From a virus: a stretch of 64,000 nt of DNA. This document shows positions 29,353-44,353 of this stretch, piece after piece; within the stretch, counting starts at the first letter, position 1; the number at the start of each line of letters is the position of its first letter. Made by a program: the position numbers and the translations under genes. The DNA lies in the IMG/VR virus record IMGVR_UViG_3300017757_000001; one strand, written 5' to 3'. The notes under the pieces were generated by a model that saw nothing but the letters and a program-made list of their open reading frames with translations, did no database searches and had not been told where the DNA came from.

Positions 29353-32300
29353 TTAACCTTCACTTGGAGTTTTTTCATCATCTTTTGGTTCTGCATATCC
29401 TGGAACTGCATATTTTGCGTAATTTGGAGAAGTTAGACCATGTTTATTACCAAACACTAACCAAATATCAGGTTCACCACAAACGAACCAATATCCTGTT
29501 TCTATTTTAGTTTTATTAGTATAAACTCCATCAATCATCTGTCTACCTTTAGGTGTTACAGTTTTCATTGAACCTGTTTCATTTTGTACTAATAATTGAT
29601 TTGTATAAAATGAACCTGAATTAAATAATGTAGGTGAACTACCACCATTTTGAGTAATATATCTATGAGATTCTGGTCTATTACTAGCACTATCCCAATA
29701 CATCATTTGACCTCTATCTGTTTGATTTATTGCATAATCTAATCCAATTGTTATATCTCCTGATAAAGTACCACCACCTGTTATAGGTCCAGTAACATTT
29801 ACACTTACATAAGTACCAGAAGTACCTACATTACCTGATATTCCTGAAGTACCATTAGCTCCTGATGAACCTGAAGTTCCTGAGTTTCCAGAAGAACCTG
29901 ATGTACCCGTAGCTCCTGATGAACCTGATGTACCGGCTCCTGAACCACTTGTTCCTGAAGAACCATCTCCTCCTGAAGTTGCTCCTGCTCCTGAAGTTCC
30001 TGCTATACCATCTGTACCACTTGTTCCTGAAGTACCATCTGCTCCAGAAGTTGCTGCATCTCCAGTTGAACCTGCTATACCATCTGTACCTGAAGTACCA
30101 CTTGTACCATCTGCTCCTGACGTTGCTGCATCCCCAGTTGAACCTGCTATACCATCTGTACCACTTGTTCCTGAAGTACCATCTGCTCCAGATGAACCTA
30201 CATCCCCTGAAGTACCTGATGTACCTGAAGAACCACTTCCCCCTGATGAGCCAATATTTCCTGATGTACCACTTCCCCCAGTTGAACCTGAAGTACCAGT
30301 TGTACCACTTATTCCATTAGTATTAGCTGTACCTGATGTACCTGCCGTTCCCGAAGAACCTGATGTTCCAGAAGAACCTGATGTTGGTGAATAACATATA
30401 GTATATTTAACACCTACAGTTAATGTAAATGAAGAACTTATTAATGGTAAATAAGTAACTGTAAAATTAGAACCTCCACCTAAAATATTAGTAACTTCAT
30501 AATAACTAATATTTCCAGTTGCGGTCATATCAATTAATTTTATAATATCACCTACACTTACATTAGCAGCCCATGGGAATATGTTTGGAGTAGCTGTTGA
30601 TAAAATAAATTGATTAATATTTTGTGAACCAAGATGACTTACATAAAATGCACCAGCTGGGACAGGTGCAGTTTGAGAAGCTTGAGCTATAGTACAACCA
30701 CCACTTACACCTGAAGTACCTGAACTTGACCCTGCACCTGATGTACTTCCAGTTCCTGAAGTACCTGATGTACCATCAGTACCTGATGTATGTGAATTTC
30801 CTGAAGTACCTGCTGTACCTGTAGTACAACTATCACCTGAAGTAGCACAAGTACCACTACTACCACTTTCTCCTGAAGTACCACTTGTTCCTGTAGTACA
30901 ACTTGTTCCATTAGTACCATTTGCACCTGTTGTACCTGATGTTCCTGATGAACCTGAAGTGTTTGATAAAGCACTTTCTCCTGCTGTACCATCTGTTCCT
31001 GAATTTCCTGAAGTACCTGCTGTACCTGAAGTTTCCCCATCTCCTGAAGTACCTGCTGTACCTGAAGTTCCACTCACTCCTGATTGGCCTGAAACTCCTG
31101 AAGAACCTAATTCACCTGATGTACCTGCTGTACCTGCTGTACCTGCTGTACCTGATGTGCCTGAATTTCCACTACTACCACTTCCTCCTGAAGTACCACT
31201 ATTACCTGTTGATCCTATAGCACCTGAAGTACCTGATGTACCCGAAGAACCACTTCCTCCTGATGAACCACTATTTCCTGAAGATCCAATGTCACCTGTA
31301 GAACCTGAAGTTCCAGTAGTACCACTTACTCCATTTGTACCTGATACCCCACTAGTTCCTGATGTACCTGATGTACCAGTAGAAGCACTTGAACCTGAAG
31401 TACCTGTAAATCCAGATGTTCCACTATCTCCTGTTGTACCTGAAGTACCTGTAGTTCCTGTTGTACCATTTGTTCCTGAATTTCCTGAAGTACCTGCTGT
31501 ACCTGTAGTTCCACTTACTCCTGATTGACCTGAAACTCCTGAAGAACCTAATTCACCTGATGTACCTGCTGTACCTGCTGTTCCTGAAGAACCATTAGAT
31601 CCACTTCCTCCTGATGAACCAATTGCACCTGTAGTACCACTTACTCCACCTGTACCTGATGTACCTGATGATCCACTATTACCTGAAGAAGCATCATCTC
31701 CACTACTACCAGCTGTTCCACTAGAACCCGATGAACCTGATGTTGCACTAAGTCCTGAAGATCCTACAGTTCCTGATAATCCACTACTTCCTGAAGTACC
31801 TGAGGTACCTGATGTCATTGATAAGGCACTTTGTCCAAATGTTCCTTCTGTACCTGATAATCCTGAAGTTCCTGAAGTTCCTGAAGATCCTGCACCACCT
31901 GATGTACCTGAAGAATGCCCTGAACCTGAAGTACCTGCTGTACCTGAAGATGAACTTGCACCTGAAGATCCATGGTCTCCTGTTGAACCTGAAGTACCTG
32001 TAGAACCTGCTGTTCCTGAAGAACCACTACCTCCTGAAGATCCAATGTTACCTGTAGAACCTGATTCTCCCGAAGTACCATCTGTTCCTGAAGAACTTGA
32101 TAATCCTGAAGTACCTTCTGTACTTGAAGCTCCTGAAGTACCTGAAGTTCCTGTTGTACCTGATAAAGAACTAAACCCACTTGTTCCTGCTGTACTTGAA
32201 GCTCCTGAAGTACCATCTGTACCAGAAGTACTACTGTTACCTGAAGTACCTGCTGTACCCGTAGAACCACTTACTCCTGATTGGCCTGAAACTCCTGAAG

Positions 32301-35300
32301 AGCCTAAAACTCCAGAAGAACCTGCTGTACCATCTGATCCTGAAGTACCTGAAGAGCCACTTCCTCCTGATGAACCACTATTACCTGTTGATCCACTTCC
32401 CCCTGAAGTTCCAGTAGTACCATCAGAACCTGATTCTCCTGTTGTACCTGAAGTTCCTGTAGAACCTGATTCTCCTGTTGTACCTGATGTACCATCTGAA
32501 CCTGAATTACCTGTTGTACCTGCTGTTCCTGAAGAACCTGTTGTTCCTGAAGTTCCAGTAGTACCATCTGAACCTGAATTACCTGTTGTACCTGAAGTTC
32601 CTGTAGAACCTGCTGTTCCTGAAGTACCTGATGTATCTGAATTTCCACTAACAGCTTCTACACATATTAGTTCTTTAACATTTCCTATTAAAGTAAATGA
32701 TGATCCTGATGTATTAGATACAGTAAATACTGTAGTTGATCCACCTATAGATACTGCTGATGCTAAATAAGTATTTATAACACCTGTTGCTAGGTGTGTT
32801 ATTGATAATACACTTCCAATCCCAGCACTAGTAACCCATGGGAATGCAGCATTAGGTAATTCAATACTTGTAATATTATTTGAATTAGTAGAATTTGCGG
32901 TAAATTGAGGGGGTGAACCTACTGGGGATGAACTAACAAAATCAGCTATAACACACCCACCACTTAATCCTGAAGAACCTGCTGTACCAGTAGTACCTGC
33001 TGTACCACTTGATCCACTTTCTCCTGTTGTACCATCTGTTCCTGAAGAACCTGTTGTACCTGATGTACCAGTTGTACCACTAGAACCACTTTCTCCAGTT
33101 GTACCACTAGTTCCAGTAGAACCTGTTGTACCTGAAGTTCCAGTTGTACCACTTGATCCACTTTCTCCAGTTGTACCACTAGTTCCACTTTCTCCTGAAG
33201 TACCAGTTGTTCCTGTAGAACCTGATTCACCTGCTGTACCTGAAGTACCATCTGAGCCACTTTCTCCTGTTGTACCATCTGTTCCTGAAGAACCTGAAGT
33301 TCCAGTTGAACCTGAAGTACCATCTGAACCTGATTCACCTGAAGTACCTATTGTTCCTGAAGAACCTGATGTTCCTGTTGTACCTGAAGTACCATTTGTA
33401 CCTGATTGTCCTCCTGTACCTGAAGTTCCTGAAGTACCTGAAGTACCACTTACTCCTGATTGACCTGAAACTCCTGAAGAACCTAGAATTCCTGATGTAC
33501 CTGCTGTACCATCTGATCCTGAAGAACCTGAAGTTCCTGATTCACCTGATTCACCTTTTGTACCATCATTTCCACTAGTACCTGATGTACCAGATGTACC
33601 TGTAGAATTTGATTGACCTGTTGTACCTGCTGTTCCTGTAGAACCCGAAGATCCTGAAGTTCCAGTTGAACCACTTGATCCACTTTCTCCTGTTGTACCA
33701 TCTGTTCCAGATGAACCTGAAGTTCCTGTAGTACCTGAAGTACCATCTGAACCTGATTCTCCTGTTGTACCACTAGTTCCAGTAGAACCTGTTGTACCTG
33801 AAGTTCCAGTTGTACCACTTGATCCACTTTCTCCAGTTGTACCATCTGTTCCTGAAGAACCTGAAGTTCCAGTAGTACCACTTGATCCACTTTCTCCTGA
33901 AGTACCATTAGATCCAGTTGTTCCATGAGTTCCAGTTGTTCCTGTAGTACCTGCTGTACCTGAAGTACCATTTGTACCTGAAGTACCATCTGAGCCACTA
34001 TCCCCTGAAGTACCATCTGTTCCTGTAGTACCTGCTGTTCCTGAAGTACCACTTACCCCAGATTGACCTGAAACTCCTGAAGAACCTAAAACTCCAGAAG
34101 AACCTGCTGTACCATCTGTTCCTGAAGTACCTGAAGTTGCACTTTGTCCTGATGTACCTGAAGAATGTCCTGAACCTGAAGTACCTGCTGTTCCTGAAGA
34201 TGAACTTGCACCTGAAGATCCATGGTCTCCTGTTGTACCTGAAGTTCCTGTAGAACCTGCTGTACCATCTGAACCTGAATCACCTGAAGAACCATCATTT
34301 CCTGTTGATCCTGAAGTACCTGCTGTTCCTGCTGTACCATCTGAGCCTGATTCACCTGCTGTTCCTGCTGTACCATCAGAACCTGATTCTCCATTTGTTC
34401 CTGAAGAACCATCAGAACCACTTTCTCCTGCTGTACCATCTGTTCCTGTAGAACCTGAAGTTCCTGTAGTACCTGAAGTACCATCTGAGCCACTTTCCCC
34501 TGAAGAACCATCTGTTCCTGTAGAACCTGCTGTTCCTGAAGTTCCAGAAGTACCATCGGAACCTGATTCTCCGCTTGTTCCTGAAGTACCTGATGTTCCT
34601 CCTGTACCATTAGTACCTGAAGTGCCATCAGATCCTGAATTTCCGCTTGTTCCTGAAGTACCTGCTGTTCCTCCTGTACCATTAGTACCTGAAGTACCAT
34701 TAGATCCTGATTCACCTGAAGTACCTGAAGTTCCTTCTGTACCACTTGTTCCTGAAGAACCATCAGAACCTGATTTACCTGAAGTGTTGGATGAACCTGC
34801 TGTACCTCCTGTTCCTGAAGTACCATCTGAACCACTTACTCCAGTTGTTCCTGATGTACCATCAGAACCTGATTCTCCGGATGTGCCATCTGTTCCTGTA
34901 GAACCTGCTGTACCTGATGAACCCGAAGAACCATCAGAACCACTATCTCCTGAAGAACCATCTGTTCCTGTAGAACCTGCTGTTCCTGAAGTTCCAGAAG
35001 TACCATTTGAGCCACTATCCCCTGAAGTACCATCTGTTCCTGTAGAACCTGATGTACCTGATGTACCTGAAGAACCATCAGAACCTGATTCACCTGATGT
35101 ACCTGAAGAACCATCTGTACCTGAAGTACCTGAAGTTCCAGAAGTACCATCTGTTCCAGATATACCTGATGTACCTGAAGAACCATCTGAGCCTGAAGTA
35201 CCTGAAGTACCTGAAGTACCATCTGTTCCTGAAGAACCTGATGTACCTGATGTACCTGAAGTACCATCAGAACCTGATTCTCCACTTGTTCCTGAAGTAC

Positions 35301-36087
35301 CTGAAGTACCACTTACTCCATTTGTTCCATTTGTACCATCTGAACCTGATTCACCTGAAGTACCTGCTGTACCATCTGAACCTGATTCACCTGAAGTACC
35401 TGAAGTACCACTTGTATTATTTGTACCCGATGTACCTGCTGTACCACTTGCTCCTGAAGAACCTATTAATCCCGAAGTACCTGAAGTACCAGATTCTCCA
35501 GCTGTACCATTTGTGCCTGAAAAACCACTTGTACCTGATGTTACATTTACATATCCTAATATTCCTGTTACTGCATCATAAGTAACAATTGTAGGCATAT
35601 CTTGTGTTGGAAGAGTATTTATTTTAAAATTTTCAAAAACTGATCCAGGTTTTTCAGTTAATTGAAATGCTGCACTACCTGTTACTAAGAAACTACCTGT
35701 AATTTCTGCTGGGTGGTTAGGTAATGCTATTGTTCCTGATCCTGAGTATGGAAATGAAACACCTTGTGAATCGGTTATTTCTATGTTTATACCATTAGCA
35801 CCATTAGGAGTAATACTATTTATAGCATTACCAGTTAAATATACTTCTGTAGTATTAGACGTTATTACACTACCATTATACAAAAATTGTATACCACTAC
35901 CATAACCTGGCATAGTAGATAAGTCAATACTATGAGAATAATAAGATTGACTAGCAAAGTAAAAATTTATTTTACTACCTTCTAAAGAACTTGAAGCATA
36001 TAAAGATTGCCAGTTAGTATCAACTTCATACCAAGTTAATTCTGATCCTTTATTTATCCTTAATAATATGTCTGGTACAAATGGCAT
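29353..36087 (-). CDS. Giant Gly-X-X (Ser/Thr-rich) repeat protein, probable virion fibre
   Basis: 2244 aa; N-terminal [18 protein letters not shown] anchor-like motif; ~1700 aa of SGT/TGT/SGS triplets; two ~100-aa globular inserts; C-terminal [19 protein letters not shown] then head domain; follows the neck genes. Confidence 0.8.
29810..35540 (-). repeat. Degenerate 9-bp (Gly-X-X) tandem repeat array within the fibre gene, with higher-order blocks
   Basis: Plus-strand units such as gtacctgaa/gttcctgaa; [14 protein letters not shown] x5, [28 protein letters not shown] x2, [15 protein letters not shown] x3. Confidence 0.95.
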
Positions 36088-39898: not shown

Positions 39899-39907
39899 TA
39901 TAAATAT
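39899..39907 (-). promoter_or_regulatory. Putative late promoter ATATTTATA
   Basis: Exact motif 11 nt upstream of ATG at 39888. Confidence 0.65.
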
Positions 39908-39933
39908 TGGGAAAATATTCTCTAATTTAGAAA

Positions 39934-40599
39934 TTAGTGATATCCATTCAATAAATCCAATAAATCATCTATAGCATCATGTCTGTGTGAATCTTCTAGC
40001 ACACATTTAAATACATATTTTGAGTTTGTTAACTTAGCCATGTCATGATAAGCTGAGTAGTTTTTATCTTTTAAATCAATTTGGTATGAATCCCCACAAA
40101 ATATCATTTTTGAATCTTTCCCTAATCTACCAATACACATAGCTAATTGTGACCTAGTTAAATTTTGAAATTCATCTACAATAACTACAGCATTATCAAA
40201 TGTACGTCCTCTAAAATGGGCTAAAGATACTAATTCTATTTTTTCATCTTTTTCCATTTTTTCTAAAATTGGAGGTTTATTATAAATTTTTCTCATATTA
40301 GACCTAATAGGTACTAACCAAGGTTCCATTTTTTCACGTTCTGAGCCTGGGAGGAATCCATTATCTTCTGTTGCTATAGTAGGTCTTGTAATGACAATTT
40401 TATTATATTGTCTTTTAAAAAATTGATCTAATGCTACTTGTACAGCTAATAATGTTTTACCACTACCTGCTTTTCCCACAATAAAATTATAGGGTGATTT
40501 TAATATTGCTGTTTTTGCTATCTTTTGTTCTTCTGACAAAGAGAGGCTAAATCGTATACTACCTTTGGGTGGTGTTTTTTCCATATTAGATTTTGGCAT
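39934..40599 (-). CDS. phoH: PhoH-family ATPase
   Basis: GKAGSGKT, ITRP, GFLPG, RGRTF, VDEFQN, GDSYQIDL, RH. Confidence 0.95.
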   Translation of the reverse strand: MPKSNMEKTPPKGSIRFSLSLSEEQKIAKTAILKSPYNFIVGKAGSGKTLLAVQVALDQFFKRQYNKIVITRPTIATEDNGFLPGSEREKMEPWLVPIRSNMRKIYNKPPILEKMEKDEKIELVSLAHFRGRTFDNAVVIVDEFQNLTRSQLAMCIGRLGKDSKMIFCGDSYQIDLKDKNYSAYHDMAKLTNSKYVFKCVLEDSHRHDAIDDLLDLLNGYH

Positions 40600-41308
40600 T
40601 TGTTTTAATTTTTACTAATTTATCTAGTCCTGCATTTATATGCATGGTTTCATTCAACAATAATTCAAATGTATATCTGTCATCTAGAGGTAACACTAGG
40701 TCAACTTGAGAACCCCATCTAATTAAACTAAATCTTTCATTTTGAGTAACTAAATCTCCTTGATGTTTAAAAGGAGCTATAACATTTACATCTTCATCTG
40801 CTATTTGTATTATGTGATATGTGTAATCTAATGTAGGAATGTAAATTTGATTAGACATTCTTTCATTATATTTTAAATAATCCATATTATTAGGATTAAT
40901 TACTTTATTTAGTATATCTTTTTCTACAGCTAACATAGGTTTATTTGTAGATTCAATAGGTTCTAAATTTTTATATTTTAATACCCCTCCATAAGGAATT
41001 CTATAAATATGCACATCATAAAAAGACATAAATATCCCAATTACTAAGGAAGGTTTATTATAACTTTTATCTCCCATAACATCTTGAATAGTATAATCTA
41101 TACCTTTAATTTCAAGTACTTGTTCATTAGGTAAAACTGTTTTTTGATATAAAATAGTTCCATCTGCTGGGCTATAAAAATGTTCATGATCAATGTATGT
41201 TGGTCTTATTGGGTCTCTAAAAAAGAAAGTATTACTTAATACTCCTACAGGCATTTTAGATAATTCTGCAACTTCTCCATTTAACCAATCTTCTAATTCT
41301 TCAGCCAT
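40586..41308 (-). CDS. Phosphatidylserine-decarboxylase-fold (pyruvoyl) proenzyme without an obvious membrane anchor
   Basis: FFFRDPIR, SPADG, IGIFMSFYDVH, NER, QIA, IRWGSQVDL (GS autocleavage motif). Confidence 0.8.
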   Translation of the reverse strand: MAEELEDWLNGEVAELSKMPVGVLSNTFFFRDPIRPTYIDHEHFYSPADGTILYQKTVLPNEQVLEIKGIDYTIQDVMGDKSYNKPSLVIGIFMSFYDVHIYRIPYGGVLKYKNLEPIESTNKPMLAVEKDILNKVINPNNMDYLKYNERMSNQIYIPTLDYTYHIIQIADEDVNVIAPFKHQGDLVTQNERFSLIRWGSQVDLVLPLDDRYTFELLLNETMHINAGLDKLVKIKTNAKI

Positions 41309-42222
41309 TAAAGGAGTGTTTTAAAATGATCTACCCTATTTAAATGCATTACCATACAACTTAACATTGCTCCTGATTTCATATATTCAGATAAGTTAAA
41401 TATTACAGGTTCCATTCCTTCATCAGAACATATTTTTTCTAATGAAGATATTTTATGTTTTTCTCCTTCATAAAATTCATCTTCTTTTTTCATTTCTGAT
41501 ATATTGGAAGCACACAAAATCATATTTCCTAATCTAACTGAGTTTGCCATCCCATACATTGAGTCGTCAGCATCTATGTCTATTATATTAGTATATTTGC
41601 TTAATTGCGCTAACTCTTCTTTTTCATATAACTCCGTACAAACCATTGTTGAGCGCGTATTTAACGGGAATATTGAACAATCTAAATGATACATATATTC
41701 ATCAACCATTTTAACTTTAATAACATTCATGTCAAAATTTTCTTCCATCCAATGGTAAGTTTTTATATCTGATCTAATATCAAACCCACCTATATAAACA
41801 TTATCTTTTAAATATTTTATATCTGCTTCACCTTCCCATTTATGGGGTGATATGTGAGTTTTATAACCCATTTGATTAAAAAACTTTTCACCTACAAATT
41901 CTTCACCCTGTCTTGGTGGAGAAGTATAATTAGATAATAAAATATGATTTTCATCTTTAATATGAGGTAATTGTAAACCTAAATTTGCTACATATATTAG
42001 ATCTTGAAAATTACCTTCTGCAGGTAACAAATGTACTAATGATTGACCTGCCATAAAGTTGTATAAATCCATAAATTGTTTATATGCCTTTGGCCTATTT
42101 ATAGATAATTCTTTTTCTGACATTTCTTTCATCCAAACATTATTTGGATCATTAGTAGAAAAGGTGTGGGGGAAATTCATCACATAACTTTGTATAGGTA
42201 ACTGTGAGGGTGTCTCTTTCAT
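41308..42222 (-). CDS. Amidinotransferase / guanidino-modifying (pentein) enzyme resembling the ArgZ/AgrE arginine-dihydrolase domain
   Basis: NVWM...AYKQF, QDLIYVANLGL, RQGEE, WEGEAD, YHLDC, LSEYMKSGAMLSCM (catalytic Cys). Confidence 0.8.
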   Translation of the reverse strand: MKETPSQLPIQSYVMNFPHTFSTNDPNNVWMKEMSEKELSINRPKAYKQFMDLYNFMAGQSLVHLLPAEGNFQDLIYVANLGLQLPHIKDENHILLSNYTSPPRQGEEFVGEKFFNQMGYKTHISPHKWEGEADIKYLKDNVYIGGFDIRSDIKTYHWMEENFDMNVIKVKMVDEYMYHLDCSIFPLNTRSTMVCTELYEKEELAQLSKYTNIIDIDADDSMYGMANSVRLGNMILCASNISEMKKEDEFYEGEKHKISSLEKICSDEGMEPVIFNLSEYMKSGAMLSCMVMHLNRVDHFKTLL

Positions 42223-42251
42223 TTTAAAACTATTTTTAATTATTATTTGAG

Positions 42252-42260
42252 TATAAATAT
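42252..42260 (-). promoter_or_regulatory. Putative late promoter ATATTTATA
   Basis: Exact motif downstream of the capsid terminator, 30 nt upstream of the amidinotransferase ATG. Confidence 0.65.
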
Positions 42261-42289
42261 ACTACCTATTTATTAGGTAAACAAATAAC

Positions 42290-42318
42290 AAAAAAAAAGC
42301 CCCGCTAATGCGGGGCTT
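42290..42318 (-). terminator. Rho-independent terminator after the major capsid gene
   Basis: AAGCCCCGC-ATTA-GCGGGGCTT followed by a long T run. Confidence 0.92.
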
Positions 42319-42340
42319 CTTAATCATTATGTATTAACTA

Positions 42341-44353
42341 TTAGATAGTGTTTAAACCACTTACCATAATCTTACCATAGAATTCTGGTCTAACCATTTT
42401 CTTCGCGTATCTAGTCAATAGACCTTTACGTGGAACAAAAGTGTTTGGATCATAAACCATTGGAGTCATGATTAATGGAATATACGGAGCAAATACAGCA
42501 CCAGCTTCTAAGAACTGACCACCTCTATATCCCATAAGAATTGTATTCTCTGTCATATAAGGGTTTTTGTAAACTGTATATCTAGAATTCATTTGTCCAG
42601 CTTTTTGTACTCCAAATGCATAAGACGCTTTTGAAGTGTCTCCATCTGAATTACTTGCAAATCCTGGAATTGATTCTAAAATAGTACCAACTGAAGGAGA
42701 GCAAACTAAGAAATTAGCACCACCTCTAAGAGTTCTTTGGTGAATAATATTACTTAATTTTTGCATCTTTGTTCCTAAAGTTTGGAACCATTGTCCTTGT
42801 GAGTTATAAAATCCTAAATCAGAATTTACAACACCACCTGCAGAAATTGCTAAATTGTTTTCTGCTGACCAGTACTCAGTACCTGCCGCTGCATCTTCAA
42901 TTAGCATTCCAAGAATTTCTAAATCAATTTCAAGTGAAATATACTCACTCATAATTGAAGTTAATTCAGCTTCTGCATCTAAAGAATGATAAGCATTTAA
43001 ATCTTGAGCAAACTCAGGAGTCCAAACAGCTTTCAATTTTTTAGTTTTAGCAACAATAGCTTCACTTGACATTTTAACATCAATTTCTGGAATGTCAAAC
43101 GTTGCGTTTGCATTGTCTCCATTTAAATTGGTGTTATCCCATTCGAAGTCACCTCTGTTGTTATCAGTTGGAGCTAGTACTTGAGATATTCTAACACCTG
43201 TTCCACCTACAAAGTTTCCTGCATTAAGTACGAATTGGATAAATGTACCTACTTCAGTAACACCTTGAATAGTGTAAACTAATGAAGCATAAGCAGCATT
43301 AGCACCAATAACAGGTAAAGAAGCTTTAGGGAATGTAATAGCATCACCAACTTTAAATCCAGCACCTGGATTAGTAGCAGTAATAGTTACACCTGCAGCT
43401 AAGTTAGCACCTGCAGCAACTACTGTAAATACAGCACCTGTTCCAGTACCATTTGTAGTCCAAGTAGAAACACCTGCATCAGTTCCTGCAACAGTAGTAC
43501 CACCACCAGTTACAGATCCTGCACCACCTAATCCAGCAATACCTAGGTCTAAACCTATTCTTAATCCATCAGTAGTTACTTTTGTAAATGCTGGGTATTG
43601 GTTAGCACCAACATCACCTAATCCTGTGTTTGCTGCACCACCTGCATCACCTGCTAAAGCTGGCTTCAAGTAGAAAGCTGAAACCGCTGTTGGGTCCCAA
43701 ATACCTGCACCTGCTGCATCTTGAGCTAAGTTAGTAGTTAAAGTTTGAGCTAATTGTAAGTTACCTGCTAAAAATGAAGCTGAAACAGCACCATCTGCAT
43801 TACAATCTCTAAACCAATCAACATTACCTGCTGTCATTCCAGCTTGAGTAAATGACTCAGTATCTTGTGTTGAATATGAAAATCTACCTGCACCATAAAG
43901 ACCACCTTTTGCAGCATTACCAAAAGTATTTGCTGGATCAGTGTCACCATAAAGTGAAGTATTTTGTGCAAATGGAGTCTTAGCAGTTCCGTATTGGAAA
44001 TCTAAGAAAAATACTAGACCAGAAGGTAAGTTCATTGGTTGAACCGAAACAAATTCTTTTGCTGCGATTTGACCAAATACTTTTCTTACCAATGGTAAAG
44101 CAACTCCTGCCCATTGTGCACCTCTACCAGGAGAGAAAGTACCAGATCCAGCACCACCACCTGTGTTACTGTCCTCTGTTACTAATTGTTTAGCTTGATT
44201 TTCTAAGATCATAGACATATTATTTTTGTCTGTCTCAGAAGCTAAACCTTCAAGTAGGCCTGTTTTGCCCCACTTGGACGCTAACCTTGCAGCATCACTT
44301 TGTAGTGACTTGTAAGGATTTGCGGATTCTAAAAGTGAATTTAATTGACTCAT
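42341..44353 (-). CDS. gp23: Major capsid protein (T4 gp23-like) with a large internal insertion
   Basis: KWGKTGLLEG, LENQA, VSVQPMNLPSGLVF, KKLKAVWTPEFAQDLNAYH, EIDLEI, APYIPL, GLLTRYA; 670 aa. Confidence 0.96.
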   Translation of the reverse strand: MSQLNSLLESANPYKSLQSDAARLASKWGKTGLLEGLASETDKNNMSMILENQAKQLVTEDSNTGGGAGSGTFSPGRGAQWAGVALPLVRKVFGQIAAKEFVSVQPMNLPSGLVFFLDFQYGTAKTPFAQNTSLYGDTDPANTFGNAAKGGLYGAGRFSYSTQDTESFTQAGMTAGNVDWFRDCNADGAVSASFLAGNLQLAQTLTTNLAQDAAGAGIWDPTAVSAFYLKPALAGDAGGAANTGLGDVGANQYPAFTKVTTDGLRIGLDLGIAGLGGAGSVTGGGTTVAGTDAGVSTWTTNGTGTGAVFTVVAAGANLAAGVTITATNPGAGFKVGDAITFPKASLPVIGANAAYASLVYTIQGVTEVGTFIQFVLNAGNFVGGTGVRISQVLAPTDNNRGDFEWDNTNLNGDNANATFDIPEIDVKMSSEAIVAKTKKLKAVWTPEFAQDLNAYHSLDAEAELTSIMSEYISLEIDLEILGMLIEDAAAGTEYWSAENNLAISAGGVVNSDLGFYNSQGQWFQTLGTKMQKLSNIIHQRTLRGGANFLVCSPSVGTILESIPGFASNSDGDTSKASYAFGVQKAGQMNSRYTVYKNPYMTENTILMGYRGGQFLEAGAVFAPYIPLIMTPMVYDPNTFVPRKGLLTRYAKKMVRPEFYGKIMVSGLNTI

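What the first reader, a model, noticed from the sequence alone, without database searches (positions are those of the whole stretch)
39934..42260. Late operon with an arginine-dihydrolase-like enzyme and a soluble PSD-fold decarboxylase: possible new polyamine or guanidino pathway
Seen: right after the capsid terminator, a late-type motif precedes three overlapping genes: a pentein enzyme with intact Asp/His/Cys motifs, a PSD-fold proenzyme with DVH and WGS cleavage motifs but no membrane anchor, and PhoH. Established: ArgZ/AgrE-type domains convert Arg to ornithine; the PSD fold can be repurposed for free amino acids (fungal PsiD); polyamines neutralise packaged DNA in T4-like heads. Inference A: Arg to Orn to putrescine through an undescribed PSD-fold ornithine or arginine decarboxylase timed with packaging. 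Inference B: serine-headgroup decarboxylation followed by amidino transfer, giving a guanidinoethyl modification of lipid, glycan or DNA.
Basis: partly seen in the sequence, partly recalled or inferred. Interest (0 to 1): 0.85.

Follow-up and report, generated by a model that had tools for sequence, protein, structure and literature searches.

The report
Phage arginine-to-putrescine enzyme pair
Right behind its capsid gene this marine T4-like phage carries two coupled enzyme genes, an arginine-dihydrolase-like enzyme and a soluble relative of a membrane-lipid decarboxylase, which travel together through unrelated phages and some bacteria and most likely turn arginine into the DNA-binding diamine putrescine.

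Summary
After the capsid-gene terminator and a recurrent promoter-like motif lie three overlapping minus-strand genes. They are an ArgZ/AgrE-like pentein (304 aa), an anchor-less PSD-fold pyruvoyl proenzyme (240 aa) and PhoH.

The pentein keeps every ArgZ active-site position, including both carboxylate-binding arginines, so its substrate is still an alpha-amino acid. The PSD-like protein keeps the Asp/His/Ser self-cleavage triad. It lacks the lipid-binding N-terminal helices and the phosphate-binding Tyr.

The two genes are adjacent in about 160 marine phage contigs, in Bacteroides phages, in several unrelated PolA-type phages and in actinomycete chromosomes. In the actinomycetes the order is reversed and an exporter is often alongside. 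Campylobacter Fletcherviruses carry both genes, far apart. They are the best-conserved genes shared by these otherwise unrelated phages.

Best reading, at about 0.5: Arg to Orn to putrescine. The papers I could search describe neither the pair nor this route. A recurring agmatine-deiminase-like third gene keeps an agmatine branch open.

Inference B (amidino transfer, DNA or lipid modification) found no support. This scan has flagged the same cassette on other genomes, with the same reading.

The parts
42294..42321 (-). Intrinsic terminator closing the major capsid gene
   Evidence: 12-pair stem (7 GC), 4-nt loop and a T run; sequence read.
42252..42261 (-). Promoter-like motif TATATTTATA, 30 nt upstream of the pentein start codon
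   Evidence: WATATTTATA occurs 11 times, all on the coding strand, against 4.5 +/- 2.0 expected; 0 of 100 shuffles reach 11. It recurs upstream of other genes. Timing (late) is inferred only.
41308..42222 (-). ArgZ/AgrE-like pentein (guanidino-group-modifying enzyme), 304 aa; predicted arginine dihydrolase
   Evidence: NCBIfam Arg_dihydro E 5e-23, far below the equivalog cut-off. PHROG 12759. Family profile against PDB: AgrE 1e-30, ArgZ 1e-29, DDAH 1e-3. AF2 model pLDDT 92. ArgZ N-domain Z 34.2, rmsd 1.9 A over 264 residues; next best is AstB at 27.3. Invariant N28, D74, N80, R104, E130, R150, H179, D181, C289.
40586..41308 (-). Soluble PSD-fold pyruvoyl proenzyme, 240 aa; predicted self-cleavage at G199|S200; predicted decarboxylase of ornithine (or another basic amino acid)
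   Evidence: Pfam PF02666 E 1.6e-26. PHROG 12670. D49/H100/S200 align with E. coli PSD D90/H144/S254. AF2 pLDDT 90.9. E. coli PSD Z 12.9, PsiD 10.9, Ao-ADC1 10.2. No TM segment.
39934..40599 (-). PhoH-like P-loop ATPase; overlaps the PSD-like gene by 14 nt; positional neighbour, not a conserved partner of the pair
   Evidence: Pfam PF02562 E 1.2e-48. About 48% identical in most relatives, where the two enzymes are 69-95% identical. Absent beside the pair in the other lineages examined.
42341..44353 (-). Major capsid protein (gp23 family); upstream context
   Evidence: Pfam PF07068 E 2.6e-73. Closest isolate is Flavobacterium phage vB_FspM_immuto, 62% identity.
39899..39908 (-). Next copy of the promoter-like motif (AATATTTATA), ahead of the following structural gene; marks the end of the three-gene unit

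Best explanation
The pentein and the PSD-like protein form a mobile two-enzyme module that works on free arginine. Step 1 (inferred): the ArgZ-like pentein hydrolyses the guanidino group of L-arginine to L-ornithine, CO2 and two ammonia. Step 2 (inferred): the PSD-fold proenzyme cleaves itself between G199 and S200 to make a pyruvoyl group, then decarboxylates ornithine to putrescine.

In this phage both genes are translationally coupled. They are transcribed from their own promoter-like motif directly behind the capsid gene. The diamine would therefore appear while DNA is being packaged, as a counter-ion for about 160 kb of DNA, or to feed host polyamine pools.

Shown here: the genes, their motifs, their folds, their linkage across lineages, and that the PSD-like protein is a paralogue distinct from housekeeping PSD. 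Inferred: both substrates, the order of the steps and the physiological purpose.
For: 1. Linkage.
- The two genes are adjacent, with MCP-pentein-PSD-PhoH synteny, in 80 of 80 and 74 of 78 IMG/VR loci. The four exceptions are L185 and L188, where the contig ends at or just after the pentein; L207, where an insertion of about 1 kb precedes a PSD-like gene cut by the contig end; and L186, where about 1 kb of sequence follows the pentein with no PSD-like match.
- They are adjacent in Bacteroides phages SJC03, DAC16 and DAC23 and in L100 and L132.
- One or two unrelated ORFs separate them in L084, L098, L099 and L086.
- Fletcherviruses carry both genes but apart (40 and 39 records).
- In Saccharothrix and other Pseudonocardiaceae, and in a Gemmatimonadales MAG, the order is reversed (PSD then pentein); in S. 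coeruleofusca the stop and start overlap.
- Between a complete marine genome, Fletchervirus F341 and Bacteroides phage SJC03 only four ORFs are shared: RNR, ThyX and these two. These two are by far the best conserved.

2. Pentein.
- ArgZ scores Z 34.2 against at most 27.3 for every other pentein class.
- The invariant residues map one to one onto AgrE N22, D65, N71, R90, E118, R139, H168, D170 and C264.
- The two Arg and the Asp occupy the positions that bind the substrate carboxylate and amine in ADI and DDAH (PMC11659421; the spacing-based mapping is mine). The substrate is therefore still an alpha-amino acid, and the pentein acts before any decarboxylation.
- The motif is H-L-D, as in ADI and ArgZ, not DDAH's H-L-K.
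- N80 matches ArgZ Asn71, whose N71S mutant traps an intermediate (title of PDB 6JUZ).

3. PSD-like protein.
- The self-cleavage triad and the GS motif are kept in 20 of 22 diverse members.
- The model starts at about E. coli PSD residue 40, so at least the first two of the three amphipathic membrane helices are missing (PMC7952604).
- Phosphate-binding Tyr137 is Phe in the profile alignment.
- There is a family-specific insert with near-invariant N122, M125 and E129 and invariant N148. An acidic 'QIADxDV' stretch lies between that insert and the cleavage site.
- The Saccharothrix and Gemmatimonadales genomes carry this gene (327-339 bits) and, elsewhere in the genome, a second, very weak PSD-family match (27-28 bits), presumably the housekeeping PSD.

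4. Precedent.
- PSD-fold enzymes that decarboxylate free amino acids exist: Ao-ADC1 on arginine, with no PSD activity, and PsiD on tryptophan (PMC12904898).
- Phages are known to carry neofunctionalised pyruvoyl Orn/Arg decarboxylases of the AdoMetDC fold (PMC9992855, PMC10407285).

5. The bacterial copies sit in small-molecule contexts: an ABC, MatE or MFS exporter, or a TPP/KAS/adenylating-enzyme cluster.
Against: - No enzyme activity has been measured for any member of either subfamily.
- The substrate of the PSD-like enzyme is not determined by anything I could compute. Its nearest solved relative is still E. coli PSD, and Ao-ADC1 shows that the fold can take arginine itself.
- An agmatine-deiminase-like (PF04371) gene recurs with the module: in SJC03, in L098, in a Pseudonocardiaceae locus beside the exporter, and next to the pentein alone in a Myxococcota MAG. 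The simple Arg-Orn-Put scheme does not need it, and it suggests agmatine is around.
- Both proteins score far below the NCBIfam equivalog cut-offs.
- None of five phage genomes with the pair encodes any downstream polyamine enzyme.
- Fusions of the PSD-like domain to Acb1 and to a head-associated ADP-ribosyltransferase hint at counter-defence or host take-over.
- Two genomes have the pentein without the PSD-like gene.
Confidence: 0.5

Rival explanations
1. Agmatine branch. The PSD-fold enzyme is an arginine decarboxylase like Ao-ADC1 and makes agmatine. The agmatine-deiminase-like third gene (or the host's AIH and NCPAH) carries agmatine on to putrescine. The ArgZ-like enzyme works in parallel on arginine or citrulline, or finishes the ureido hydrolysis.
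For: Ao-ADC1 (9JF5) is a PSD-fold arginine decarboxylase and matches the model with Z 10.2 (PMC12904898). PF04371 proteins recur with the module in four independent contexts. Bacteroides thetaiotaomicron carries PF04371 and CN_hydrolase matches in the control searches. From my own knowledge, Campylobacter and Bacteroides use the ADC-AIH-NCPAH route.
Against: The pentein keeps both carboxylate-binding arginines and the amine-binding Asp invariant across members only about 30% identical. It is therefore unlikely to act on agmatine or N-carbamoylputrescine. Two enzymes that each attack arginine independently would not explain strict coupling and adjacency in pair-only genomes. Most carriers have no PF04371 gene. 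Ao-ADC1 is no closer to the model than PsiD or E. coli PSD.
Confidence: 0.17
2. Amidino transfer. The decarboxylase makes a primary amine, and the pentein transfers the amidino group of arginine onto it. The product is a guanidino compound: a metabolite, or a lipid, glycan or DNA modification.
For: The Fletchervirus homologues are annotated as amidinotransferases. Amidinotransferases share the fold, at Z 23-24, including a polyamine amidinotransferase, HsvA. In Fletchervirus and SJC03 the genes lie among replication and nucleotide-metabolism genes. Exporters flank the bacterial copies.
Against: ArgZ and AgrE score about 10 Z units above every amidinotransferase. No amidinotransferase appears in the sequence searches against PDB at E <= 0.01. 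ArgZ's Asn71 position is invariant. No ThyA-family hydroxymethylase was found in 4 of 5 carrier genomes. No DNA-transferase partner is shared.
Confidence: 0.1
3. Counter-defence or host take-over. The pair destroys or makes a small molecule used in host immunity or signalling, or depletes arginine, rather than supplying polyamine.
For: The PSD-like domain is fused to the anti-CBASS nuclease Acb1 in a PolA-type phage, with the pentein 580 bp upstream. It is also fused to a 1114-aa ADP-ribosyltransferase protein encoded near the portal gene (three genes downstream). The module moves horizontally like an accessory gene.
Against: I know of no immune signal that is an arginine-like amino acid. Both fusions are single clusters. 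The bacterial copies sit in biosynthetic or export contexts. The position in the late operon beside the capsid gene does not suit an early counter-defence role.
Confidence: 0.1
4. A genuine phosphatidylserine decarboxylase that remodels host membrane lipid, with an unrelated arginine-catabolic neighbour.
For: Pfam PF02666 is matched above its threshold. E. coli PSD is the nearest solved structure. Databases name it PSD.
Against: At least the first two membrane-binding helices are missing and Tyr137 is Phe (PMC7952604). E. coli PSD needs the acyl chains of its substrate (PMC7952604). Scores are far below every PSD equivalog cut-off. The Saccharothrix and Gemmatimonadales genomes carry a second, very weak PSD-family match besides this gene. 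Strict linkage to a pentein has no lipid rationale. No PS synthase was seen among the neighbours I annotated.
Confidence: 0.04

Closest known systems
ArgZ (Synechocystis Sll1336) and AgrE (Anabaena Alr4995) arginine dihydrolases, PDB 6JUY-6JV1 and 6LRF-6LRH
   Same: Same pentein fold over the whole domain: Z 34, rmsd 1.9 A, 264 residues. Every active-site position I could map is identical: N22, D65, N71, R90, E118, R139, H168, D170, C264.
   Different: Only 20-22% identity. Scores lie far below the NCBIfam equivalog cut-off (82 against 450 bits). There is no fused ornithine-cyclodeaminase-like C-terminal domain; the partner is a separate PSD-fold decarboxylase. There is an extra helical insert at about residues 240-270. 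The gene is phage-borne.
Bacterial phosphatidylserine decarboxylase (E. coli Psd, PDB 6L06, 7CNW-7CNZ)
   Same: PF02666 fold (Z 12.9). The Asp-His-Ser triad and the G|S self-cleavage site that makes the pyruvoyl group are kept.
   Different: 16-17% identity. The model starts at about PSD residue 40, so at least the first two of the three amphipathic membrane helices are absent. Phosphate-binding Tyr137 is Phe. There is a family-specific insert at about residues 113-147. No membrane anchor (PMC7952604).
Ao-ADC1, the PSD-fold pyruvoyl arginine decarboxylase of Aspergillus oryzae (PDB 9JER, 9JF5), and PsiD, the PSD-fold tryptophan decarboxylase (8X4Q, 8ZIA)
   Same: Soluble PSD-fold enzymes that decarboxylate free amino acids. 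Ao-ADC1 has no PSD activity (PMC12904898). Fold matches are Z 10.2 and 10.9.
   Different: Fungal and about twice as long, with an N-terminal helical region. No detectable sequence relation beyond the fold: PsiD E 0.08, Ao-ADC1 not found. Neither is paired with a pentein.
Phage AdoMetDC/SpeD homologues neofunctionalised into pyruvoyl ornithine or arginine decarboxylases (PMC9992855, PMC10407285)
   Same: Phage-encoded pyruvoyl enzymes recruited from another substrate to make diamines. This is the same proposed physiological logic.
   Different: A different fold (AdoMetDC, not PSD). No arginine-dihydrolase partner. Those enzymes are experimentally characterised, whereas the present pair is not and is not mentioned in that work.
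Chlorovirus PBCV-1 arginine-to-homospermidine pathway (ADC, agmatine deiminase, NCPAH, HSS)
   Same: A virus-encoded route from arginine to a polyamine that uses a pentein-superfamily enzyme (cited in PMC9992855).
   Different: It goes through agmatine and N-carbamoylputrescine, with a PLP decarboxylase and a PF04371 deiminase. The phage genomes examined here have no NCPAH or HSS-like gene.

Membership tests
ArgZ/AgrE-type arginine dihydrolase (pentein / GME superfamily) | Five-fold alpha/beta propeller fold, closest to ArgZ among penteins | tested here: met
   AF2 model pLDDT 92. ArgZ N-domain Z 34.2, rmsd 1.9 A over 264 residues. AstB 27.3, DDAH 26.4, ADI 25.9, amidinotransferases 23-24, agmatine deiminases about 20.8.
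ArgZ/AgrE-type arginine dihydrolase (pentein / GME superfamily) | Catalytic Cys, His and acidic residue, plus Asp after the His (H-x-D, not DDAH's H-x-K) | tested here: met
   C289, H179, E130 and D181 are invariant in 12 sequences down to 31% identity. They align with AgrE C264, H168, E118 and D170.
ArgZ/AgrE-type arginine dihydrolase (pentein / GME superfamily) | Asn at ArgZ position 71, where ADI and DDAH have Asp | tested here: met
   N80 is invariant and aligns with N71. The role in the second hydrolysis is inferred from the title of PDB 6JUZ (N71S traps an intermediate). The ArgZ paper itself was not readable here.
ArgZ/AgrE-type arginine dihydrolase (pentein / GME superfamily) | Residues that hold the alpha-carboxylate (two Arg) and the alpha-amine (Asp) of free arginine | tested here: met
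   R104, R150 and D74 are invariant and align with AgrE R90, R139 and D65. The roles are taken from ADI and DDAH as described in PMC11659421, mapped by identical spacing, which is my inference.
ArgZ/AgrE-type arginine dihydrolase (pentein / GME superfamily) | Score above the curated NCBIfam equivalog cut-off | tested here: not met
   Arg_dihydro 81.6 bits against a cut-off of 450; bifunc_ArgZ 76 against 1025. It is a separate, distant subfamily (PHROG 12759).
ArgZ/AgrE-type arginine dihydrolase (pentein / GME superfamily) | Conversion of L-arginine to L-ornithine, CO2 and two NH3 | not testable with these tools
   Needs an enzyme assay.
Phosphatidylserine decarboxylase (PF02666; Psd/Asd) | Pfam family membership and fold | tested here: met
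   PF02666 93.6 bits against a cut-off of 22. E. coli PSD Foldseek E 8e-7, VIA Z 12.9.
Phosphatidylserine decarboxylase (PF02666; Psd/Asd) | Asp-His-Ser triad and G-S cleavage motif for pyruvoyl formation | tested here: met
   D49, H100 and G199-S200 align with D90, H144 and G253-S254. They are kept in 20 of 22 family members. Cleavage itself was not tested.
Phosphatidylserine decarboxylase (PF02666; Psd/Asd) | Membrane association: N-terminal amphipathic helices or a TM anchor, and an acyl-chain groove | tested here: not met
   The model aligns from E. coli residue 40 onward, so helices H1 and H2 and their acyl-contact residues are absent (PMC7952604). The first 29 residues are acidic and the maximum KD19 is 1.07.
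Phosphatidylserine decarboxylase (PF02666; Psd/Asd) | Phosphate-binding Tyr137 (E. coli numbering) | tested here: not met
   In the profile alignment it is Phe in this protein and in most of the family. The single-sequence alignment places a Tyr there with a 4-residue gap, so the assignment depends on the alignment.
Phosphatidylserine decarboxylase (PF02666; Psd/Asd) | Score above any curated PSD/ASD equivalog cut-off; being the cell's housekeeping PSD | tested here: not met
   The best NCBIfam hit is 79 bits against a cut-off of 183. The family profile scores the Saccharothrix and Gemmatimonadales copies at 327-339 bits and a second PSD-family locus in the same genomes at 27-28 bits.
Soluble PSD-fold amino-acid decarboxylases (Ao-ADC1, PsiD) | PSD catalytic domain without lipid dependence, acting on a free amino acid | tested here: inconclusive
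   Fold matches are Z 10.2 (9JF5) and 10.9 (8X4Q), no better than E. coli PSD. Sequence relation is marginal: PsiD E 0.08. The substrate is not testable here.
Amidinotransferases (AGAT, StrB1, SxtG, HsvA) | Closer to amidinotransferases than to guanidino hydrolases | tested here: not met
   Z 22.7-24.2 against 34.2 for ArgZ. None appears in the PDB sequence searches at E <= 0.01.
PhoH-like ATPase | PF02562 domain with a P-loop | tested here: met
   E 1.2e-48 over 193 residues; GKAGSGKT present.

The most novel reading that the evidence does not exclude
The module does not make packaging polyamine. It makes or destroys a small arginine-derived molecule with a signalling, toxic or counter-defence role. 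The hints are the fusions of the PSD-like domain to the anti-CBASS nuclease Acb1 and to a head-associated ADP-ribosyltransferase, and the dedicated exporters beside the bacterial copies.
Probability: 0.12. Interest if true: 0.85.

Novelty: new variant of a known kind. Interest (0 to 1): 0.62.

Why it matters
If the proposed chemistry holds, this would be a two-step route from arginine to putrescine (ArgZ-type dihydrolase plus PSD-fold decarboxylase) that I found in no paper I could search. It would need no agmatine, no PLP and no host enzyme.

It would be carried by an abundant group of marine T4-like phages: more than 1200 protein clusters at 90% identity, many of them from marine surveys such as Tara. 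Gut Bacteroides phages, the Campylobacter phages considered for biocontrol, and actinomycete gene clusters carry it too.

It would add a second bacterial or phage use of the PSD fold for free amino acids. It would extend the catalogue of virus-encoded polyamine metabolism. It would also correct a routine mis-annotation, because these genes are counted as 'phosphatidylserine decarboxylase' and 'amidinotransferase' in auxiliary-gene surveys. The test is cheap: two small soluble proteins and LC-MS.

Tried and rejected
- Link to the deoxyinosine DNA of Fletcherviruses. SJC03 has a dCTP-deaminase/dUTPase-like gene and an IMPDH/GMP-reductase-like gene right after the pair. PF00478 is absent from F341 and from three marine genomes, so it is not a shared partner. 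The 2026 gp119 paper names no dI biosynthesis genes.
- Downstream polyamine genes. Spermidine synthase, AdoMetDC, PLP Orn/Arg decarboxylase, DHS/HSS-like and NCPAH were not found in five carrier genomes.
- 5-hydroxymethyl-pyrimidine hypermodification. A ThyA-family gene is present in only one of five genomes.
- YAcAr (SLOG) gene. It is next to the pentein in L084 and present in F341 and SJC03, but only weakly or not at all in the marine genomes. I did not treat it as a partner.
- TAATAAATA as the late motif: not enriched.
- Firehammervirus CP220. Its 'glycine amidinotransferase' (PMC2853527) does not match the family profile, and CP220 is not among the tblastn hits.
- Pentein-PSD fusion proteins: none found. 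The only 'longer' pentein carries an intein.
- The ArgZ and AgrE structure papers could not be read. Residue roles therefore rest on ADI/DDAH homology.
- Contexts of P0123, P0137 and P0129 were too short to use.
- I did not run a complex prediction, because I make no claim that the two proteins bind.
- No whole genome is held for the window.


Full report
**What is there.** The window is part of a low-GC (about 30%) T4-like phage genome. Its gp23-type capsid protein is closest to Flavobacterium phage vB_FspM_immuto, at 62% identity. The capsid gene (42341-44353, minus strand) ends in a strong intrinsic terminator at 42321-42294.

Thirty nucleotides before the next start codon lies TATATTTATA. 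The word WATATTTATA occurs 11 times in the window, always on the coding strand. The expectation is 4.5 +/- 2.0, and 0 of 100 shuffles reach 11. It also stands before the following gene and several structural genes. It is therefore a real phage promoter-like element. That it is 'late' is an inference from the genes it precedes.

Three genes follow:
- a 304-aa pentein (41308-42222);
- a 240-aa PSD-family protein (40586-41308), coupled to the pentein by a TAATG overlap;
- PhoH (39934-40599), overlapping the PSD-like gene by 14 nt.

**The pentein.** Pfam finds nothing. NCBIfam gives weak, sub-threshold hits to dimethylargininase, arginine dihydrolase and ArgZ. A profile of 11 family members finds AgrE and ArgZ in the PDB at 1e-30 and 1e-29, and DDAH only at 1e-3.

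The AlphaFold model (pLDDT 92) superposes on the ArgZ N-terminal domain with Z 34.2 and rmsd 1.9 A over 264 residues. That is seven Z units above AstB, DDAH and ADI, ten above the amidinotransferases and thirteen above the agmatine deiminases.

Invariant residues in members down to 31% identity are N28, D74, N80, R104, E130, R150, H179, D181 and C289. They align one to one with AgrE N22, D65, N71, R90, E118, R139, H168, D170 and C264.

The spacing of these positions is the same as that of the residues which PMC11659421 describes for ADI and DDAH: an Asp that binds the substrate amine, a guanidino-side position six residues later, two arginines that hold the carboxylate, the catalytic Glu, and His-x-Asp. 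I infer two things:
- the enzyme still binds a free alpha-amino acid with an unmethylated guanidino group, that is L-arginine;
- it has ArgZ's Asn at the position where the N71S mutant traps an intermediate (title of PDB 6JUZ).

I could not read the ArgZ and AgrE structure papers, so these residue roles rest on homology.

**The PSD-like protein.** Pfam PF02666 is matched clearly, at E 1.6e-26. Every curated PSD/ASD equivalog is missed by a wide margin.

D49 (PADG), H100 (DVH) and G199|S200 (WGS) align with E. coli PSD D90, H144 and G253|S254. Self-cleavage would leave a 41-residue alpha chain.

The model (pLDDT 90.9) matches three solved enzymes:

| Structure | Z |
|---|---|
| E. coli PSD, from its residue 40 onward | 12.9 |
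| PsiD, tryptophan decarboxylase | 10.9 |
| Aspergillus oryzae arginine decarboxylase Ao-ADC1 | 10.2 |

PMC7952604 defines what makes E. coli PSD a lipid enzyme. These features are missing or changed here:
- the three N-terminal amphipathic helices, with their acyl-chain contacts at L13, L18, V37 and F41;
- the phosphate ligand Tyr137.

The protein begins at about PSD residue 40 with an acidic segment, so at least the first two helices are absent. It has no hydrophobic stretch. It has Phe at the Tyr137 position in the profile alignment.

The family has its own insert at about residues 113-147, with near-invariant N122, M125 and E129 and invariant N148. An acidic 'QIADxDV' stretch lies between that insert and the cleavage site. 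From memory, canonical PSDs have a glycine-rich stretch at that place; I did not test this. I read these acidic residues as candidates for binding a cationic side chain. That is inference only.

The subfamily is small. It has 778 clusters at 50% identity with E < 1e-3 and 236 with E < 1e-10. It is distinct from housekeeping PSD. In the Saccharothrix and Gemmatimonadales genomes the family profile scores this gene at 327-339 bits. A second PSD-family locus elsewhere in each genome, presumably the housekeeping PSD, scores 27-28 bits.

**Linkage.** This is the strongest result.

- *Marine phage family.* In 80 IMG/VR loci found with the PSD-like protein, the order MCP-pentein-PSD-PhoH holds wherever the contig allows. 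The pentein is 69-95% and the PSD-like protein 78-89% identical to the window's. PhoH is mostly about 48% identical. A second scan with a pentein profile gave 78 loci. Of these, 74 showed the PSD-like gene. L185 and L188 end at or just after the pentein. L207 has an insertion of about 1 kb before a PSD-like gene cut by the contig end. L186 has about 1 kb of sequence after the pentein with no PSD-like match. L164 carries a 213-aa ORF between the two genes.
- *Isolated phages.* Both genes occur in exactly two groups. In Bacteroides phages SJC03, DAC16 and DAC23 they are adjacent. In Campylobacter Fletcherviruses (40 and 39 records) they lie far apart, in different gene neighbourhoods. Firehammervirus CP220 does not match.
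- *Other phage types.* Unrelated phage contigs carry the pair adjacent (L100, L132). In L084, L098, L099 and L086 one or two unrelated ORFs separate the genes.
- *Bacteria.* In three Saccharothrix species and a Gemmatimonadales MAG the order is reversed, PSD then pentein. In S. coeruleofusca the stop and start overlap.
- *Pseudonocardiaceae sample.* Eight of 81 genomes carry the PSD-like gene. One of these is an unpublished genome, G070. No other claim here rests on it, and without it the count is 7 of 80. In all five published loci I examined, the pentein follows the PSD-like gene directly.
- *Whole-genome comparison.* I compared a complete marine genome, F341 and SJC03. Only four ORFs are shared by all three: the ribonucleotide reductase large subunit, ThyX, the pentein and the PSD-like protein. 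The last two are by far the best conserved.

The pair is therefore a horizontally mobile functional unit. Intein-bearing variants of both genes exist; in the pentein the intein sits just before the catalytic WEGEAD motif. Endonuclease-sized inserts occur between the genes. Both fit strongly conserved targets.

**Context clues to function.** In bacteria the pair sits with exporters. These are a fused ABC exporter in four actinomycete loci, MatE in the Gemmatimonadales MAG, and MFS beside the pentein in a Myxococcota MAG.

In two actinomycetes it lies inside a cluster with an adenylating-enzyme/aldehyde-dehydrogenase fusion, a TPP enzyme and a KAS-like protein. One of the two clusters also has a GNAT. 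This points to a soluble small molecule, not to membrane lipid.

A PF04371 (agmatine-deiminase-like) gene recurs in four places:
- elsewhere in the SJC03 genome;
- a few genes upstream of the pentein in L098;
- beside the exporter in a Pseudonocardiaceae locus;
- directly after the pentein in the Myxococcota MAG, which lacks the PSD-like gene.

No other polyamine gene is present in five carrier phage genomes.

**Mechanism.** The pentein's conserved carboxylate and amine ligands put it before any decarboxylation. The simplest complete pathway for a two-gene unit is then:
1. Arg to Orn, by the dihydrolase;
2. Orn to putrescine, by the pyruvoyl decarboxylase.

Precedent exists for each element:
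- ArgZ and AgrE pass ornithine to a fused ornithine-using domain.
- The PSD fold has been shown to decarboxylate free arginine (Ao-ADC1, which has no PSD activity; PMC12904898) and free tryptophan (PsiD).
- Phages are known to carry pyruvoyl decarboxylases of another fold retargeted to ornithine or arginine (PMC9992855, PMC10407285).

The position behind the capsid gene suits a need for DNA counter-ions at packaging. From my own knowledge, the known or likely hosts (Bacteroidota, Campylobacter) make putrescine through agmatine and hold spermidine or homospermidine rather than large putrescine pools. That would make a short-cut useful.

I put this reading at about 0.5. The main rival, at about 0.17, makes the PSD-fold enzyme an arginine decarboxylase feeding the agmatine-deiminase-like partner. 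It explains the third gene. It does not explain why a carboxylate-binding pentein is strictly coupled in pair-only genomes. Amidino transfer, counter-defence and true PSD activity follow at lower odds.

**Literature and earlier notes.** I found no paper linking the two genes. The virosphere polyamine survey does not mention them. An ocean auxiliary-gene survey discusses viral psd simply as a step of phosphatidylethanolamine synthesis.

Earlier notes of this scan describe the same cassette on several other genomes with the same reading, including a three-gene form. They are AI notes and are not independent evidence. I reached my reading before opening them.

**Verdict.** The feature is real, strongly conserved and mobile. 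Its function has not been characterised biochemically.
- Kind: a new variant of known enzyme families and of virus-encoded polyamine metabolism.
- Inference B is not supported.
- The claim that a PSD-fold basic-amino-acid decarboxylase is undescribed is out of date.

Noticed in passing
window, 11 sites on the minus strand (755, 16803, 21440, 24369, 39899, 42252, 49235, 51172, 53955, 57752, 63108): The promoter-like word WATATTTATA occurs 11 times, all on the coding strand, against 4.5 expected. Several copies lie 20-35 nt upstream of start codons of structural genes. It is probably this phage family's late (or middle) promoter.
   Followed up: partly
P0127 = L084:8001-9173 and L085:8001-9173: In a PolA/D5-primase phage the PSD-like domain is fused to an Acb1 (anti-CBASS nuclease) domain. 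The pentein lies 580 bp upstream and a YAcAr/SLOG gene stands directly before it.
   Followed up: partly
P0126 (1114 aa; JGI 3300075153, no DNA available): An N-terminal PSD-like domain is fused to a VapB-like region and a C-terminal ADP-ribosyltransferase exoenzyme domain. The gene lies three genes downstream of the portal gene, and the product looks like a head-associated, possibly injected, multidomain protein.
   Followed up: no
P0122 (PSD-like, 737 aa) and P0271 (pentein, 659 aa): Both enzymes have intein-bearing variants. The PSD-like one carries a LAGLIDADG domain. The pentein intein sits immediately before the catalytic WEGEAD motif. L164 and L207 have inserts of 0.7-1 kb between the two genes.
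   Followed up: partly
L001:6835-8317 (Bacteroides phage SJC03, 144438-145920): Directly after the pair come a dCTP-deaminase/dUTPase-like gene and an IMPDH/GMP-reductase-like gene (324 aa), then a helicase. A phage GMP reductase could bear on purine pools or non-canonical purines. It is not shared with the other carriers.
   Followed up: partly
L095:1196-11679 (Saccharothrix coeruleofusca) and L223 (G023): An uncharacterised operon: ABC exporter, GNAT (seen in S. coeruleofusca only), adenylating enzyme fused to an aldehyde dehydrogenase, a 743-aa TPP enzyme, a KAS resembling cispentacin AmcF, the PSD-like gene and the pentein. Two other Saccharothrix species keep only the exporter plus the pair.
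   Followed up: partly
L094:3413-5292 (Myxococcota MAG); L219:5502-10371 (G022); L098:2601-6732: An agmatine-deiminase-like PF04371 gene recurs beside the pentein or the pair. In L094 it follows the pentein directly, with a P450 upstream and an MFS transporter downstream, and that genome has no PSD-like gene.
   Followed up: partly
window 39934-40599 and loci L002-L081: Two very different PhoH versions occupy the same slot behind the pair: about 86-90% identical to the window's in a minority of relatives, about 48% in most. This suggests replacement of PhoH while the enzyme pair stayed put.
   Followed up: no
window 42341-44353: The major capsid protein is 670 aa. It matches gp23 in two pieces, with an insertion of roughly 150-200 residues rich in Gly, Ala and Thr between them. 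This may be a surface decoration domain.
   Followed up: no
window 29353-36087: A 2244-aa protein made almost wholly of proline-free Gly-X-X repeats rich in Ser and Thr raises the local GC to 43%. Other first-stage notes already cover it.
   Followed up: no
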